64,000 nt of DNA from Bacillota bacterium. Lineage in GTDB: Bacteria > Bacillota > JAAYKD01. Positions within the stretch are counted from its first letter, which is position 1, and each line of letters opens with the position of its first letter. The notes beneath the pieces are model-generated. The model saw nothing but the letters and a program-made list of their open reading frames with translations, did no database searches and was not told the DNA's origin. Shown in pieces: positions 3,613 to 23,809 of this stretch. The stretch is taken from the NCBI GenBank assembly GCA_963666425.2, contig OY762825.2, forward strand, positions 224,001-288,000, in the 5' to 3' direction. The translations under genes and the position numbers were made by a program.

Positions 3613-4491
3613 TTAAAGCTCGGCTGCTCTGTAAAGCCGATAGACCTGAATCAGAGGCCGCCTTAAATCTTTGTCCAGTATAAGATGCAGTAAAATTTCT
3701 GTGATGGATATTCTGCATTTCAGTGTTAATTTGAGGTTGCAGATGCTGCCGGTAAAAATAGGTTCTACAGTAAAATAACAGAATGACAAAGAAGGCAGCA
3801 GTGTATAGCATGTAGAAAACAAAAAAGCGGTGTCAGCCGGATCCTCTAATCCCAACTGCCCTTGTAGTTGCAGCGGTTTGATGTGCAGTAATCGAAAAAG
3901 TTTAATCAGGAAGGTAAAAAACATATCTTTATACTGCATGCCCATGCGAATGTAATCTATAATCTCCTGAAAATTAGTGTCTGAGGAGGAACCGGAGGGG
4001 GATGCTTTGGCTTCACTATCCTTTAAGCTTGCCTGTGACGGATCAGCAGAAGCAGTCTTTGCCGGTTCGTTTCGCATATCAGCTGAGGCGCTGCGCGGCG
4101 CTGTAGGCTCCGGCTGTTTCGGGATGGTTTTTGTTTCCGTTCTTCTGCTCTTTCCTTTTTTTACTGCGGCCGGTTTTGCAGCCTCAGTGGCTTTTGCACC
4201 CGGCAATTGATTTTCAATCAAACGAGAGAGATCAAGCAGCCAAGCCCAGCGGAGCTTGATCTGATAATCGAATTTTTCCTCAAAAAAAGAACAGGAAGCT
4301 GTAATATGAAAAGGTAATGCTAAAATTAGAAGGATGAAGAGCAGAAGGCAAGGAAGAATAATGAGCAAAATACTAACAATTCTTCCTATTAACCAAAAAA
4401 GCCAAATGGTACTCTTCAGACAAAGAGCAATAAATAGCACGATACCGATTATTTTCAATGGCAACCATAGAAGCCTATTGATACTCCTCAC
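3613..4491 (-). CDS. DUF2953 (YtfI-like) membrane protein
   Basis: N-terminal TM segments, low-complexity linker, GLEDPADTA..VEPIF motif; upstream of ytfJ. Confidence 0.75.
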   Translation of the reverse strand: MRSINRLLWLPLKIIGIVLFIALCLKSTIWLFWLIGRIVSILLIILPCLLLFILLILALPFHITASCSFFEEKFDYQIKLRWAWLLDLSRLIENQLPGAKATEAAKPAAVKKGKSRRTETKTIPKQPEPTAPRSASADMRNEPAKTASADPSQASLKDSEAKASPSGSSSDTNFQEIIDYIRMGMQYKDMFFTFLIKLFRLLHIKPLQLQGQLGLEDPADTAFLFSTCYTLLPSLSFCYFTVEPIFTGSICNLKLTLKCRISITEILLHLILDKDLRRPLIQVYRLYRAAEL

Positions 4492-4530
4492 CTCGCTTTC
4501 ACACTACAGAGGGTGGACTTCCGGTTTTAG

Positions 4531-5457
4531 GTGCTTTGGGAAAGGATGCTTTTCTTGAGACGATATTATCTTGCGACCGCTGCGCTGCTTCTGGTGACTG
4601 TGATTTGGGGATCCACTTTTCCCCTGTCAAAAATCGTTCTGACCGAAATTTCGCCCCTCTATTATCTGGGCATCCGTTATGCCATTACAACCATCGTAAT
4701 GACAGTGCTTTTTCATCGGCAAATCCATCTGCACTGGCGGACCAGTTGGCAGGCAGCGCTTCCGCTTGGGCTTGCGATTTTTCTTGCCTATCTTCTGCAA
4801 ACGCTGGGTGTGATGGCAACAACAGCCAGCAAAGCCGGCTTTTTTACAGCCTTCGCTGTCGTTTTGGTACCGCTGCTGTTGTTTTTTTTGCAAAAAGAAA
4901 AGCCCCCGATTTCCCTATTTGTTGGTGTTGCTTTGGCGGCGATCGGCTTAGGTTTGCTTTCCGGTATTCTGGAAGAGCAAATGAGCTTCAACCTGGGAGA
5001 TTTCCTGGTTTTACTGAGTGCCTTGTGTTTTGCAGTCCAGATCATTCTGGTTTCCAGAATGAATTCCAACTCAAATGCGGTCTCTATTGCTACCATTCAA
5101 TTTGCTATTGTCGCTTTGTTTTCCTTCTTCTTTGCTTTTTTTCTGGAGAAAGTACCAGTTTGGGCAAACATCCCCTCTGCCTCCTGGTTCATTCTGATTT
5201 TCTTGGCCGTTTTCGCCACTGCGTTTGCCTTCACTATTCAAATTTTGGCACAAAAAGAAATGTCAGCCGGACAAACGGCCATGATCATGACCTTTGAACC
5301 TGTTTTCTCTGCTGGATTCAGTTGGCTGTTTTTACGGGAACAAGTGACTTTGCTTGGATTCTGCGGCGGTGGGTTGATTCTAGTGGGGATGTTGATCAGT
5401 CAATTTTACCCTGTACTGGAAGCAAAACGTGCGAAAAAAATTCTACAAATCGATTGA
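4531..5457 (+). CDS. EamA/DMT family transporter
   Basis: IWGSTF, GDFLVLLSALCFA and FEPVFS motifs, about 10 TM; start may be ATG at 4546. Confidence 0.9.
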   Translation: MLWERMLFLRRYYLATAALLLVTVIWGSTFPLSKIVLTEISPLYYLGIRYAITTIVMTVLFHRQIHLHWRTSWQAALPLGLAIFLAYLLQTLGVMATTASKAGFFTAFAVVLVPLLLFFLQKEKPPISLFVGVALAAIGLGLLSGILEEQMSFNLGDFLVLLSALCFAVQIILVSRMNSNSNAVSIATIQFAIVALFSFFFAFFLEKVPVWANIPSASWFILIFLAVFATAFAFTIQILAQKEMSAGQTAMIMTFEPVFSAGFSWLFLREQVTLLGFCGGGLILVGMLISQFYPVLEAKRAKKILQID

Positions 5458-21843: not shown

Positions 21844-21924
21844 AAATCCCCCTCTGCTCAAATGTCAATTGAGCGTAGGGGGATTTCTTGCTATCAAAAC
21901 AGCAATTTGCTATGCTTTTTTTAT

Positions 21925-23373
21925 TTATAGGCTGTTCGGGAAATCCTTCCTGAACTGGTACACTAATTTTTCCTGCCAATCCGAGGTTGCTTGCAGACGG
22001 CCAAAGAAGAATCTAAGGTTCTTGGGTTCCTCAACAAAGCGTAAACCGCCCACCAGGTGGCGGTTTTGATGCAGCCAGGCAATGCGGTCAACCGCATATT
22101 TAATCTGCGACAGGGTAAATACCCGTCTTGGCACAGCGAGTCTCAATAATTCCATGGCAGAAAATGTTTCATTCCCAGCCGAATCACGCTGTTCAGACAT
22201 TGTCCCACGTTCCATACCGCGCACTCCGCCGGCAAGATAAAGCGCCGCCGCTAAAGCGCCTGCAGGATATTCCTGTTGTGGAATATGATCGACAAAAGCC
22301 TTTGCATCCAAATGACAACCCAAACCACCCGCTGGTGTCACAACCGGCACACCCCTTTTCACCAGTTCACCGGTCATAAAAGCGATGAATTGCGGTCCCT
22401 GGCTGATCACGTCTTCCTCCATGGTTTCATCCAAACCCACGGTCAGTGCTTCCATTTCGCGCACAGACATGCCGCCATAGGTCAGGAATCCTTCGTATAA
22501 AGTGACTAGTTCGCGCATTTTCAAATAGAGCTCCCGGTCGTGCATGCAAATACCGCCGCCTTTGGCAAAGCCCAATTTGCGAGCCGAGAAATAGGTAATA
22601 TCACAGAGTGAAGCAATTGCCAACGTGATTTCTCGGATGCTCATCGATTTGCACTGCTCTTCCCTTTCCTTCATGAAATGCAGATTATCGGCGAGCAAGC
22701 TGGCATCGAGCACTAAGAGAAGCTGATGTTTGGCACAAACACGCTTGACATCCCGCAGATTGGCCAAGGAGAATGGCTGACCGCCGATCAGATTTGTTCC
22801 TGCTTCCATGCGGACAAAAGCGATTTTCTCACTGCCGTGCAGTGCAATGCAAGTCTCCAGCTTGTCGATATCCATGTTGCCTTTGAATAATTCCTGGCTG
22901 GTTACCTCAGTACCACGATCGGAGAGCAGTTCTTCAACTGTGCCGCCATTCAGCATAATATGGGCTTTGGTCGTCGTAAAATGATAGTTCATCGGTGTGA
23001 TCATGCCAGGTTTAACAAAGACTTGCGCCAGGATATTTTCACAGGCTCTGCCCTGATGCGCTGGCAAGAAAAACTCTGTCCCGAAAATCTGATGGATTTT
23101 TTCTTCCAAACGCACGTACGTTTCACTGCCGGCATAACTGTCGTCAGCCACCATCATGGCACCCAATTGACGATCACTCATGGCATTAACACCGCTGTCG
23201 GTCAACATATCCAAGAATACATCGCGATTATTCAATAGGAACGTATTGTTGCCGGCTTTTTTGATACAAAGCAGTCGTTCCTCAATGGGCAGCAGCTGCA
23301 GTTTCTGTACGATACGGACCTTATGCATCTCCAAGGGAATTTGTTCTCCGCTGAAAAATTGAATGTTTGACAT
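21925..23373 (-). CDS. PLP beta-eliminating lyase, tyrosine phenol-lyase-like (tryptophanase/TPL family)
   Basis: DMLTDSG, DDSYAGS, HQGRACE, HFTTT, SARK PLP lysine, ERG, LRLAVPRR, LRFF; specificity positions match TPL. Confidence 0.88.
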   Translation of the reverse strand: MSNIQFFSGEQIPLEMHKVRIVQKLQLLPIEERLLCIKKAGNNTFLLNNRDVFLDMLTDSGVNAMSDRQLGAMMVADDSYAGSETYVRLEEKIHQIFGTEFFLPAHQGRACENILAQVFVKPGMITPMNYHFTTTKAHIMLNGGTVEELLSDRGTEVTSQELFKGNMDIDKLETCIALHGSEKIAFVRMEAGTNLIGGQPFSLANLRDVKRVCAKHQLLLVLDASLLADNLHFMKEREEQCKSMSIREITLAIASLCDITYFSARKLGFAKGGGICMHDRELYLKMRELVTLYEGFLTYGGMSVREMEALTVGLDETMEEDVISQGPQFIAFMTGELVKRGVPVVTPAGGLGCHLDAKAFVDHIPQQEYPAGALAAALYLAGGVRGMERGTMSEQRDSAGNETFSAMELLRLAVPRRVFTLSQIKYAVDRIAWLHQNRHLVGGLRFVEEPKNLRFFFGRLQATSDWQEKLVYQFRKDFPNSL

Positions 23374-23470
23374 GAAATTAACCCTCCTTATTTATTTGAT
23401 TGATTTTCTCGTTGATGAAGCTGCAATAATCATAATCGGCTTTCAATTTCATCATCCCTCTCGTCAGAAA

Positions 23471-23765
23471 TTAAAAAAACCGTCCTTTGTGTATAAAACT
23501 ATACACAAAGGACGGATAATTCTTCCGTGTTACCACCTTAATTTTTTGACATTTCGCAATGCCAATCTTATCAAGTATCGGCCCAAAGGCGAATACTCTA
23601 GCACGATAACGGATGCAGATTTCCGGCTTAACCTACTAAGGGCAACACCCTGTTCAGCAAGCAGCTCTGAAGATGTATTCGGAATACCATTCCTTGCCCC
23701 TCTCACCTGCCGGTAGCTCTCTGTAAGGAATTATCGTATTCGTACTAGTTCTTCGTCAAAGCCAT
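23471..23765 (-). promoter_or_regulatory. T-box riboswitch, Tyr (UAC) specifier, with intrinsic terminator
   Basis: Minus strand: GAAGA..AGTA, CAGAGAG, GGTGAGA, specifier loop GAA-TAC-A (TAC at 23675-23677), T-box AAGGTGGTAACACGG (23525-23539), 16-bp terminator stem 23480-23515 plus U-run. Confidence 0.92.
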
Positions 23766-23779
23766 TCACAATTTTTACT

Positions 23780-23809
23780 ATAGTAACATTACCGGGTAGA
23801 GTATGTCAA
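23780..23809 (-). promoter_or_regulatory. sigmaA-type promoter for the T-box leader
   Basis: TTGACA-18-TACTAT with TG extended -10. Confidence 0.7.

What the first reader, a model, noticed from the sequence alone, without database searches (positions are those of the whole stretch)
21925..23809. Tyr T-box controls a tyrosine phenol-lyase-like gene: possible phenol-to-tyrosine salvage/biosynthesis
Seen in sequence: a complete transcriptional T-box with specifier UAC (Tyr) and antiterminator bulge UGG-U, which pairs with discriminator A73 as in tRNA-Tyr (tRNA-Trp has G73). The downstream lyase carries the three residues known to separate TPL from tryptophanase: FTTT (Thr124 vs Asp), ERG (Arg381 vs Ile) and LRFF (Phe448 vs His). 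Established: T-boxes turn genes ON when the cognate amino acid is scarce, whereas catabolic tpl/tnaA are induced by substrate excess; TPL is reversible (phenol + pyruvate + NH4+, or beta-replacement from Ser/Cys). Inference: this enzyme supplies Tyr from environmental phenol or a Tyr derivative rather than degrading it, which would be a non-canonical Tyr route. I cannot confirm from here that this is undescribed.
Basis: partly seen in the sequence, partly recalled or inferred. Interest (0 to 1): 0.9.

Follow-up and report, generated by a model that had tools for sequence, protein, structure and literature searches.

The report
Tyrosine T-box controls phenol-lyase-like enzyme
A switch that turns genes on when tyrosine runs short sits in front of an enzyme resembling the one that normally destroys tyrosine, and the same pairing recurs in many anaerobes, so the enzyme probably makes tyrosine, possibly from phenol.

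Summary
Window 23505-23768 (-) is a T-box leader (Rfam RF00230, 101 bits, cut-off 93). It has specifier UAC, bulge UGGU, a promoter and a 16-bp terminator. The host tRNA-Tyr ends in ACCA.

The leader precedes a monocistronic 482-aa PLP enzyme at 21925-23373 (-). This enzyme keeps the tyrosine phenol-lyase (TPL) pocket residues. It fails the TPL equivalog model (435.7 vs 720.7 bits) and belongs to a separate, strongly supported clade. The clade has its own substitutions at sites that are invariant in TPL and tryptophanase.

The pairing is not an orphan:
- 23 of 80 homologue loci carry a T-box, plus 2 of 7 loci from relatives. All of these have the UAC specifier.
- In one locus the gene heads a DAHP synthase, prephenate dehydrogenase, EPSP synthase operon.
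- The host genome has no tyrA or pheA hit.
- tyrA is missing in 12 of 23 T-box-bearing genomes and in 1 of 57 others.

The best reading is a starvation-induced, tyrosine-forming enzyme. This rests on inference; there is no biochemistry, and the phenol substrate is a guess. Four literature searches found no paper linking a T-box to this enzyme family.

The parts
23780..23809 (-). Sigma-70-type promoter: TTGACA, 18-nt spacer, TACTAT, with TG before the -10 hexamer
   Evidence: 10 of 12 consensus matches. It lies about 12 nt upstream of the first T-box model position (23768).
23505..23768 (-). T-box leader RNA (Stem I with specifier loop, Stem III, antiterminator/T-box sequence)
   Evidence: RF00230, 101.0 bits (cut-off 93), E 4.2e-21, full model 1-219.
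23675..23677 (-). Specifier codon UAC (Tyr), in GAA-UAC-A
   Evidence: The same column reads UAC in all 23 leaders of homologue loci and in L101 and L107. It is also UAC in the leaders of the host's two tyrS-like genes (read by eye).
23532..23535 (-). Antiterminator bulge UGGU, complementary to the 3' ACCA of uncharged tRNA-Tyr
   Evidence: The host tRNA-Tyr(GTA) ends in ACCA and tRNA-Trp in GCCA.
23473..23515 (-). Intrinsic terminator of the leader: 16-bp stem, 4-nt loop, run of seven U
   Evidence: Fold -33.4 kcal/mol, z -6.96. The 5' arm overlaps the 3' end of the T-box model, as expected for the terminator/antiterminator alternative.
21925..23373 (-). Gene for a 482-aa PLP-dependent TPL-like lyase (P0001). 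AAGGAGGG ribosome-binding site at about 23382-23389.
   Evidence: Single copy in the genome, with no canonical TPL or TnaA paralogue (tblastn).
21849..21893 (.). Imperfect G+C-rich hairpin flanked by T-runs on both strands, between the lyase gene and the convergent PHP-domain gene. Probable two-way terminator.
   Evidence: Read by eye. The pattern scan did not report it (its loop and mismatches fall outside the scan's rules), so this part is tentative.

Best explanation
This is a self-contained, tyrosine-starvation-induced unit. A promoter drives a T-box leader whose UAC specifier reads the anticodon of tRNA-Tyr.

When the tRNA is uncharged, its free ACCA end pairs with the UGGU bulge. This holds the antiterminator, and RNA polymerase reads into the single downstream gene. 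When the tRNA is charged, the 16-bp terminator forms.

The gene encodes a member of a distinct, highly conserved clade of the TPL/tryptophanase family. The clade keeps the phenol-ring pocket of TPL (Thr124, Arg381, Phe448/449, Tyr71) but has a remodelled cofactor environment.

I infer that the enzyme works in the tyrosine-forming direction. It would act either by reversing the lyase reaction (phenol + pyruvate + ammonium) or by beta-replacement (phenol + serine or cysteine). That would give anaerobes that lack prephenate dehydrogenase a way to make tyrosine from phenol released by neighbouring fermenters.

Shown: the leader, its specifier, the match to the host tRNA, the gene, its clade, and the recurrence of the pairing. 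Inferred: control by tRNA-Tyr (from what is established for T-boxes), the direction of catalysis, and phenol as substrate.
For: (1) Leader anatomy and tRNA match.

(2) Recurrence. 23 of 80 homologue loci have RF00230 over the cut-off upstream on the same strand. All 23 have UAC followed by A, and UGGU. L101 (same genus) and L107 do too, making 2 of 7 family-type loci in relatives. 0 of 4 canonical-type paralogue loci have one.

(3) The T-box label needs at least 6 changes on the protein tree. The leaders fall into at least two sequence groups: 17 are 58-73% identical to the window's, and 6 are 37-47% identical. The window's leader is 42% and 58% identical to the host's own tyrS leaders. Leader and gene therefore travel together.

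(4) In L041 the order is T-box, lyase, DAHP synthase, prephenate dehydrogenase, EPSP synthase, all on one strand with a 60-nt gap or overlaps. In L036 the lyase is followed by the same DAHP synthase.

(5) The host genome (98.5% complete) has no PF02153 hit and no PF00800 hit, but it does have chorismate synthase.

(6) PF02153 is missing (no hit at E<=1e-10) in 12 of 23 T-box-bearing genomes and in 1 of 57 others. That one has only 293 nt upstream, so its T-box status is unknown. The naive Fisher p is 5e-8, or 7e-5 within Bacillota.

(7) G010 keeps pheA and aroC, but its tyrA is a 77-aa N-terminal remnant. Its relative G020 has a 369-aa tyrA. Both have the T-box lyase.

(8) Canonical tpl is induced by tyrosine through TyrR, the opposite logic (passages read in PMC10170061 and PMC1173090).

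(9) TPL is used preparatively in the synthetic direction from phenols (PMC10170061 abstract and passages; PMC13578870 passages).
Against: No enzyme assay or expression data exist, and no RNA run was listed.

The protein scores 435.7 bits against a 720.7-bit TPL cut-off. It also replaces residues that are invariant or nearly so in TPL and TnaA representatives: R217L, K256R, D258L, H343L, E69D, T53V (TPL numbering by my count). Its chemistry may therefore differ from TPL.

11 of 23 T-box-bearing genomes still have tyrA.

In the window's own taxonomic order, 0 of 10 genomes have PF02153 and only 3 have this lyase. tyrA loss there is lineage-wide and the lyase is not required for it.

11 of the 12 tyrA-less T-box genomes also lack pheA, and 4 lack aroC. 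This fits general aromatic auxotrophy or incomplete MAGs as well as it fits specific replacement of tyrA.

The phylogenetically paired test has only 3 usable pairs and is not significant.

57 of 80 homologues have no T-box, among them many Pseudomonadota with tyrA, so the clade as a whole need not be anabolic.

No internal phenol source was found: UbiD and chorismate lyase families gave 0 hits.

Completeness of the MAGs behind L001-L080 was not reported by the tool.
Confidence: 0.55

Rival explanations
1. The enzyme has become a tyrosine-forming aminotransferase, or another last-step enzyme, built on a TPL scaffold. It would bind the 4-hydroxyphenyl side chain in the conserved pocket and convert 4-hydroxyphenylpyruvate to tyrosine. 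The keto acid would come from TyrA where that is present. Where TyrA is absent, it would come from reductive carboxylation of 4-hydroxyphenylacetate by a 2-oxoacid:ferredoxin oxidoreductase.
For: The family replaces residues that are conserved in all sampled lyases of the superfamily (R217L, K256R, D258L, H343L), which hints at a changed reaction specificity. In L041 it sits in one operon with tyrA, whose product needs a transaminase. The host genome has an IorA-like gene (51% identity to the L006 protein). In L006 a second T-box (UUC by eye) precedes a POR_N oxidoreductase directly downstream of the lyase. This shows that T-box-controlled aryl-acid salvage is plausible in these organisms.
Against: Tyr71, Thr124, Arg381 and Phe448/449 serve the elimination step in TPL (my recollection of the TPL literature). 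They are invariant in all 20 sampled family members. Ordinary aminotransferases can already make tyrosine from the keto acid. No TPL-family member is known to me as a physiological transaminase.
Confidence: 0.12
2. The enzyme is a detoxifier. It destroys a tyrosine look-alike (for example D-tyrosine, meta-tyrosine or a substituted tyrosine) that blocks tyrosyl-tRNA synthetase. The T-box senses the resulting uncharged tRNA-Tyr and switches the lyase on.
For: T-boxes respond to uncharged tRNA whatever the cause. The host has two tyrS-like genes, each with its own UAC leader, an arrangement linked elsewhere to analogue resistance (my recollection for Bacillus subtilis tyrZ). A lyase running in its usual degradative direction needs no special thermodynamics.
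Against: This does not explain the operon with DAHP synthase, tyrA and aroA, the enrichment in tyrA-less genomes, or the tyrA remnant in G010. No analogue-producing or export genes are conserved nearby; neighbours are not conserved at all.
Confidence: 0.1
3. The enzyme is an ordinary catabolic tyrosine phenol-lyase, and the leader is a chance or relic association left by deletion of tyrS or a transporter.
For: The pocket residues are those of TPL. The gene is annotated 'tryptophanase' or 'tyrosine phenol-lyase' by public sources.
Against: 25 independent loci plus the window keep the same pairing with an intact promoter-leader-terminator-gene order. The leader is conserved together with the gene across classes of Bacillota. 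The protein fails the TPL equivalog cut-off and forms its own clade with 100% local support.
Confidence: 0.04

Closest known systems
Tyrosine phenol-lyase (Tpl, EC 4.1.99.2) of Citrobacter freundii / Erwinia herbicola
   Same: Same fold and family (phmmer E 3e-112 to 1tpl). Same PLP lysine, Tyr71, Thr124, Arg381, Arg404 and Phe448/449. TPL is reversible and also catalyses beta-replacement, and it is used to make tyrosine derivatives from phenols (PMC10170061, PMC13578870; passages read).
   Different: Pairwise identity to the canonical TPL-type library representatives is 40-43%. It fails TIGR02618 (435.7 vs 720.7 bits) and forms a separate clade. R217L, K256R, D258L, H343L and E69D are fixed in the clade. 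It is about 25 residues longer, with a C-terminal extension. Canonical tpl is activated by TyrR plus tyrosine, i.e. by excess. This gene is wired to tyrosine shortage.
Tryptophanase (TnaA)
   Same: Same superfamily. Public annotation of this clade is mostly 'tryptophanase', and it matches the broad NCBIfam subfamily NF009709 (586.6 bits).
   Different: It scores TIGR02617 338.8 against 825.8. At the positions that distinguish TnaA it carries Thr, Arg and Phe, where the TnaA-type representatives have Asp, a hydrophobic residue and His. The leader senses Tyr, not Trp.
Tryptophan synthase beta subunit under a Trp T-box
   Same: A functional analogy: a PLP enzyme that joins an aromatic ring (indole) to a three-carbon amino-acid unit, switched on by uncharged cognate tRNA. 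The host genome has a UGG-specifier leader upstream of a TrpB-like ORF (gene named by eye).
   Different: Unrelated fold type. The TrpB reaction is essentially irreversible and its indole comes from TrpA. Here no ring donor is encoded.
Engineered 'tyrosine synthase' (TyrS, evolved from TrpB)
   Same: It performs the chemistry proposed here: phenol plus serine to tyrosine (PMC13578870, passages read; the original report, Almhjell 2024, could not be opened).
   Different: It is a laboratory product on the TrpB scaffold. The present enzyme is natural and sits on the TPL scaffold.
Known Tyr T-box regulon members (tyrS, tyrZ, aromatic pathway genes)
   Same: Same leader class and same UAC specifier. 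The host's two tyrS-like genes carry such leaders.
   Different: The regulated gene belongs to a family otherwise known as catabolic. I found no paper naming it as a T-box target. The main comparative T-box survey (Vitreschak 2008) and all supplements could not be read.

Membership tests
T-box leader (Rfam RF00230) | Covariance-model score at or above the curated gathering score over the full model | tested here: met
   101.0 bits vs 93, model 1-219.
T-box leader (Rfam RF00230) | Specifier loop presenting a codon followed by a purine | tested here: met
   GAA-UAC-A at 23674-23680. The same column is UAC in 23 of 23 aligned homologue leaders.
T-box leader (Rfam RF00230) | Conserved T-box sequence with a UGGN bulge matching the tRNA discriminator base | tested here: met
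   AAGGUGGUAACACGG with UGGU. The host tRNA-Tyr has A73-CCA.
T-box leader (Rfam RF00230) | Mutually exclusive terminator downstream (transcriptional type) | tested here: met
   16-bp stem plus U7. The 5' arm overlaps the 3' side of the antiterminator.
T-box leader (Rfam RF00230) | Read-through induced by uncharged cognate tRNA | not testable with these tools
   Needs in vitro antitermination or reporter assays.
Tyrosine phenol-lyase (NCBIfam TIGR02618 equivalog) | Whole-protein score at or above the curated cut-off | tested here: not met
   435.7 vs 720.7 bits. A library representative, P0137, passes with 733.
Tyrosine phenol-lyase (NCBIfam TIGR02618 equivalog) | Specificity residues Thr124, Arg381, Phe448 and the general acid Tyr71 (roles recalled from the TPL literature) | tested here: met
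   Present in P0001 and in 20 of 20 sampled clade members.
Tyrosine phenol-lyase (NCBIfam TIGR02618 equivalog) | Cofactor-environment residues shared by TPL and TnaA (Arg217, Lys256, Asp258, His343, Glu69) | tested here: not met
   Leu, Arg, Leu, Leu and Asp in at least 98% of 83 clade rows. Among the 18 TPL/TnaA representatives the commonest residues are R, K, D, H and E, held by 83-94%.
Tyrosine phenol-lyase (NCBIfam TIGR02618 equivalog) | Groups with bona fide TPL in a tree | tested here: not met
   The clade of 83 rows (81 loci and window, plus P0121 and P0128) has 100% local support and is separate from the TPL and TnaA groups. The order of the three is unresolved (FastTree).
Tyrosine phenol-lyase (NCBIfam TIGR02618 equivalog) | Catalyses tyrosine = phenol + pyruvate + ammonium | not testable with these tools
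   Needs an enzyme assay.
Tryptophanase (NCBIfam TIGR02617 equivalog) | Whole-protein score at or above the cut-off, and Asp/His at the specificity positions | tested here: not met
   338.8 vs 825.8 bits. Thr and Phe stand in place of Asp and His.
Beta-eliminating lyase superfamily (Pfam PF01212) | Domain match over the cut-off, with PLP lysine and Asp214 present | tested here: met
   165.1 bits vs 27. Lys and Asp are conserved.

The most novel reading that the evidence does not exclude
This clade is a natural tyrosine synthase: a TPL-derived enzyme whose physiological job is to build tyrosine from environmental phenol. It would be carried with its own Tyr T-box as a mobile cassette among anaerobic Bacillota, and it would let lineages discard prephenate dehydrogenase. 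That would be a second biological route to tyrosine that bypasses prephenate. It would parallel indole salvage by TrpB, and it would link phenol produced by tyrosine fermenters back into protein synthesis in digesters, sediments and guts.
Probability: 0.45. Interest if true: 0.85.

Novelty: new variant of a known kind. Interest (0 to 1): 0.75.

Why it matters
Tyrosine phenol-lyase is treated as a catabolic enzyme, induced by tyrosine. Chemists have had to force it backwards, or re-engineer TrpB, to obtain a 'tyrosine synthase'.

Here a regulatory element whose logic is well established reports when the cell wants the product. It says 'when tyrosine is short', and it does so in at least 26 loci across several classes of Bacillota.

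If the enzyme does make tyrosine, several things follow:
- A prephenate-independent route to tyrosine would exist in nature.
- It would explain how some tyrA-less anaerobes cope.
- It would reveal a cross-feeding loop through phenol.
- It would provide a ready-made, evolutionarily tuned biocatalyst whose diagnostic substitutions (R217L, K256R, D258L, H343L) point to how the balance between synthesis and cleavage may be set.

The public annotation of this clade as 'tryptophanase' is at least imprecise. The clade carries the TPL-type pocket residues rather than the tryptophanase ones, and in these loci it is controlled by tyrosine rather than tryptophan.

Tried and rejected
An endogenous phenol route (chorismate to 4-hydroxybenzoate to phenol) was considered. 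PF04345 (chorismate lyase) and PF01977 (UbiD) gave 0 hits in the host genome, so I dropped it for this organism.

Conserved operon partners that might name the substrate were sought among the three ORFs on each side of the lyase in 79 loci (no lyase ORF was called for L072). No cluster covered more than 5 loci. The small recurrent neighbours were chromate-transporter-family proteins in L010, L020 and L070, and DUF554 in four Syntrophomonadaceae-type loci. I could not interpret them.

A phylogenetically paired test of T-box against tyrA loss gave only 3 usable pairs, too few to decide.

Expression: no RNA holder was listed for the 1931-bp stretch.

Literature searches:
- 'T-box' + 'tyrosine phenol-lyase': 1 paper, irrelevant on reading the passages.
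- 'T-box' + 'tryptophanase' + 'specifier': 0 papers.
- 'T-box riboswitch' + 'phenol-lyase': 0 papers.
- TPL + tyrosine auxotroph, TPL + assimilation + anaerobic, TPL + reverse reaction, and 'tyrosine synthase' turned up only engineering and review papers.
- PMC3766115 holds none of the words phenol, tryptophanase, tnaA or tyrosine.

The library lacks most subscription journals, and supplements are closed. A listing of this gene in a T-box survey table or in TBDB cannot be excluded.

A motif regex flagged 25 of 80 loci. cmscan did not confirm two of them. L051 has its leader cut by the contig end. L053 is a Rhodomicrobium locus with no T-box.

I did not run structure prediction, fold search, complex prediction or the protein atlas. 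The sequence match to solved TPLs is unambiguous, and the tools return no coordinates with which to measure the R217L/K256R neighbourhood.
Full report
**What is there**

On the minus strand of the window there is a compact unit, read from high to low coordinates.

- A promoter, TTGACA-18-TACTAT with a TG extension, at 23780-23809.
- A 264-nt leader that matches the Rfam T-box model over its full length, 101.0 bits against a gathering score of 93.
- A terminator with a 16-bp stem and seven U. The region folds far better than shuffles, z = -6.96.
- A strong ribosome-binding site.
- A 482-codon ORF at 21925-23373.

The flanking genes are unrelated. Upstream on the same strand is a pst-type phosphate transporter operon ending in phoU. 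Downstream is a convergent PHP-domain gene. The unit is therefore monocistronic.

**The specifier**

In the cmscan alignment the specifier loop reads GAA-UAC-A, and the T-box sequence reads AAGGUGGUAACACGG, with the bulge UGGU. The host genome encodes two identical tRNA-Tyr(GTA) genes that end in ACCA. Its tRNA-Trp ends in GCCA.

The genome has 18 T-box matches. By eye, three carry UAC: this one and the leaders of two tyrS-like genes of 411 and 403 aa. Two carry UGG, one before a lipoprotein and one before a TrpB-like ORF. The Tyr call is as firm as sequence can make it.

**The protein**

It is a Beta_elim_lyase. Its nearest solved relatives are tyrosine phenol-lyases, E 1e-110 to 1e-116. Tryptophanases follow at 1e-77 to 1e-90.

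It is not an orthodox TPL, however. It scores 435.7 bits on the TPL equivalog model, whose cut-off is 720.7, and 338.8 against 825.8 on the tryptophanase model. It passes only the broad subfamily NF009709.

I built a FastTree of 106 rows. They were the window protein, 80 homologue loci and 25 representatives from the 50%-identity library. The 482-aa proteins, together with P0121 and P0128, form a clade with 100% local support. That clade is distinct from the TPL-type and TnaA-type representatives. The branching order of the three groups is unresolved.

My TPL and TnaA labels rest on the best NCBIfam hit and on the specificity residues. Only P0137 passes the TPL cut-off, and P0162 falls just short of the TnaA cut-off.

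The clade has fixed substitutions at positions where the 18 TPL/TnaA representatives mostly share one residue (83-100%). In TPL numbering, counted by me, these are T53V, E69D, R217L, K256R, D258L and H343L, and there are several more. I recall most of these as lying around the cofactor and the monovalent-cation site. That is memory and was not tested here.

The clade is remarkably conserved. Members are 70-81% identical across Bacillota, Pseudomonadota (many purple phototrophs), Campylobacterota, Chloroflexota, Bacteroidota and Actinomycetota. This points to strong constraint and to horizontal spread.

**Is the pairing real?**

The scan of genome contigs gave 580 relatives, of which the best 80 were kept. 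Rfam scans of all 80 loci found an RF00230 hit over the cut-off, upstream and on the same strand as the lyase, in 23. The rest are Pseudomonadota, other phyla, and 28 Bacillota loci. Five of those Bacillota loci have under 300 nt of upstream sequence.

Aligned, all 23 leaders show UAC followed by A in the specifier column, and all show UGGU.

Among 60 relatives of the host, 7 carry a family-type gene (53-94% identity). Two of these, L101 from the same genus and L107, have a T-box, again with UAC. Four loci with canonical-type paralogues (38-40% identity) have none.

On the protein tree the T-box label needs at least six changes. Seventeen of the leaders are 58-73% identical to the window's. 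The host's own tyrS leaders are 42% and 58% identical to it. Six leaders are only 37-47% identical. So one leader-gene cassette has moved among lineages, and the remaining leaders are either very diverged or were recruited separately. This removes the 'orphan leader' rival.

**Which way does the enzyme run?**

Established knowledge of T-boxes says that the gene is wanted when tRNA-Tyr is uncharged. Canonical tpl is activated by TyrR with tyrosine bound (PMC10170061 and PMC1173090, passages). Four further observations point to tyrosine supply.

(i) In L041, a Dethiobacteria MAG, the T-box is followed on one strand by the lyase, a DAHP synthase with a ferredoxin-like domain, a prephenate dehydrogenase and an EPSP synthase. 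The spacing is a 60-nt gap and then overlaps. L036 shows the first two genes before its contig ends.

(ii) The host genome is 98.5% complete with 6.9% contamination, and the window lies on the 2.9-Mb main contig. It has no hit to PF02153 (prephenate dehydrogenase) or PF00800 (prephenate dehydratase). It does have chorismate synthase, and a chorismate-mutase domain fused to shikimate dehydrogenase and shikimate kinase.

(iii) I took a PF02153 hit at E<=1e-10 as 'tyrA present'. By that rule tyrA is missing in 12 of the 23 T-box-bearing genomes and in 1 of the other 57. That one is G062, whose upstream flank is too short to judge. Within Bacillota the figures are 12 of 23 against 0 of 23, after dropping the five loci with short flanks.

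(iv) G010 keeps pheA and aroC in its aro cluster, but its tyrA is a 77-residue N-terminal stump next to a GIY-YIG ORF. About 800 bp are missing relative to the 369-aa gene of its relative G020. Both genomes carry the T-box lyase.

**What weakens this**

- The naive Fisher tests (p 5e-8 and 7e-5) ignore relatedness. The paired test finds only three usable pairs. None goes the wrong way, but the test is not significant.
- The completeness of these MAGs was not reported.
- Eleven of the twelve tyrA-less T-box genomes also lack pheA, and four lack aroC. Many are therefore broadly auxotrophic or incomplete, rather than specifically tyrA-less.
- In the host's own order, none of 10 genomes has PF02153 and only 3 have the lyase. 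tyrA loss there came first or came independently, and the lyase is an accessory rather than a necessity.
- Eleven T-box-bearing genomes keep tyrA.
- Nothing identifies the aromatic substrate. No ring-donor gene is linked, and the host has no UbiD or chorismate-lyase route to phenol.
- The clade's substitutions at lyase-invariant sites leave room for a different reaction. That is why I keep a TPL-derived aminotransferase as the main rival.

**Mechanism proposed**

1. Uncharged tRNA-Tyr pairs through its GUA anticodon with UAC, and through its ACCA end with UGGU.
2. The antiterminator is stabilised and the lyase mRNA is completed.
3. The enzyme binds phenol in the Thr124/Arg381/Phe448 pocket. 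It joins phenol to an aminoacrylate made on PLP, either from pyruvate plus ammonium or from serine or cysteine.
4. Tyrosine is released.

Steps 1 and 2 follow from the sequence plus established T-box biology. Steps 3 and 4 are inference.

The habitats suggested by the record titles of the homologue MAGs are anaerobic digesters, sludge and sediments. Tyrosine fermentation releases phenol and ammonium in such places. This is consistent with the proposal but is not evidence for it.

**Novelty**

T-boxes and TPL-family enzymes are both well known. The new elements are the pairing, the distinct clade, and the implied anabolic role.

I found no paper that holds both a T-box term and phenol-lyase or tryptophanase in a relevant sense. 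The 2008 T-box survey, TBDB and all supplements were out of reach. I therefore rate it 'new variant of a known kind', with the caveat that the pairing may already sit unremarked in a table.

Noticed in passing
L006:4625-4863 and L006:4929-5948: Directly downstream of the T-box lyase in this Tissierella MAG lies a second T-box (114.5 bits). By eye its specifier is UUC (Phe) with a UGGU bulge. It precedes a 2-oxoacid:ferredoxin oxidoreductase alpha-type ORF (Pfam POR_N), which looks like IorA to me. This may be T-box-controlled phenylalanine synthesis from phenylacetate in a genome with no tyrA or pheA hit.
   Followed up: partly
L041:2600-2900: Between the leader terminator and the lyase start codon there are about seven tandem copies of a roughly 40-nt unit. 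They stretch the leader-to-gene distance to 631 nt. L036 has a 399-nt gap. The related L073 has only 114 nt.
   Followed up: no
L041:208-1678 (- strand): A second, divergent T-box (106.6 bits) precedes a DAHP synthase that is split into two ORFs of 160 and 212 aa. This is either a frameshift or an assembly error. Its specifier was not read.
   Followed up: no
Host genome G000:C1:1314459-1316309 (L112:58-1908, - strand): A 616-aa fusion of chorismate mutase (CM_2), a shikimate dehydrogenase N-domain and shikimate kinase lies next to chorismate synthase. The genome has no prephenate dehydratase or dehydrogenase hit, so the fate of prephenate is unexplained.
   Followed up: partly
L113 (G010:C68) 4429-5129: tyrA is reduced to a 77-aa N-terminal fragment beside a GIY-YIG nuclease-domain ORF. 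The syntenic cluster of G020 has an intact 369-aa tyrA and no such ORF. The deletion may be linked to a mobile GIY-YIG element.
   Followed up: partly
Proteins P0122, P0124-P0127, P0132-P0134, P0138, P0139, P0147: The representative library holds proteins of 850-930 aa with two matched stretches, i.e. tandem duplications of the whole lyase domain (31-37% identity to the query). I know of no description of such double TPL/TnaA proteins.
   Followed up: no
Host genome C1:2144833-2145076 (+) and C1:1830374-1830636 (+): There are two tyrosyl-tRNA-synthetase-like genes (411 and 403 aa, named by eye), each behind its own UAC T-box. With the lyase this makes a three-member Tyr T-box regulon.
   Followed up: partly
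L010, L020 (upstream) and L070:4768-5292 (downstream): Chromate-transporter-family (PF02417) genes lie next to the T-box lyase in three loci from two different subclades. Their meaning is unknown. A transporter for an aromatic substrate is conceivable.
   Followed up: no
L001-L080 as a set: The clade is 70-81% identical across six phyla and is common in purple phototrophs (Rhodobacter, Rhodovulum, Thiocapsa, Rhodocyclus, Rhodomicrobium), where it has no T-box and tyrA is present. Its role and regulation there are open.
   Followed up: no
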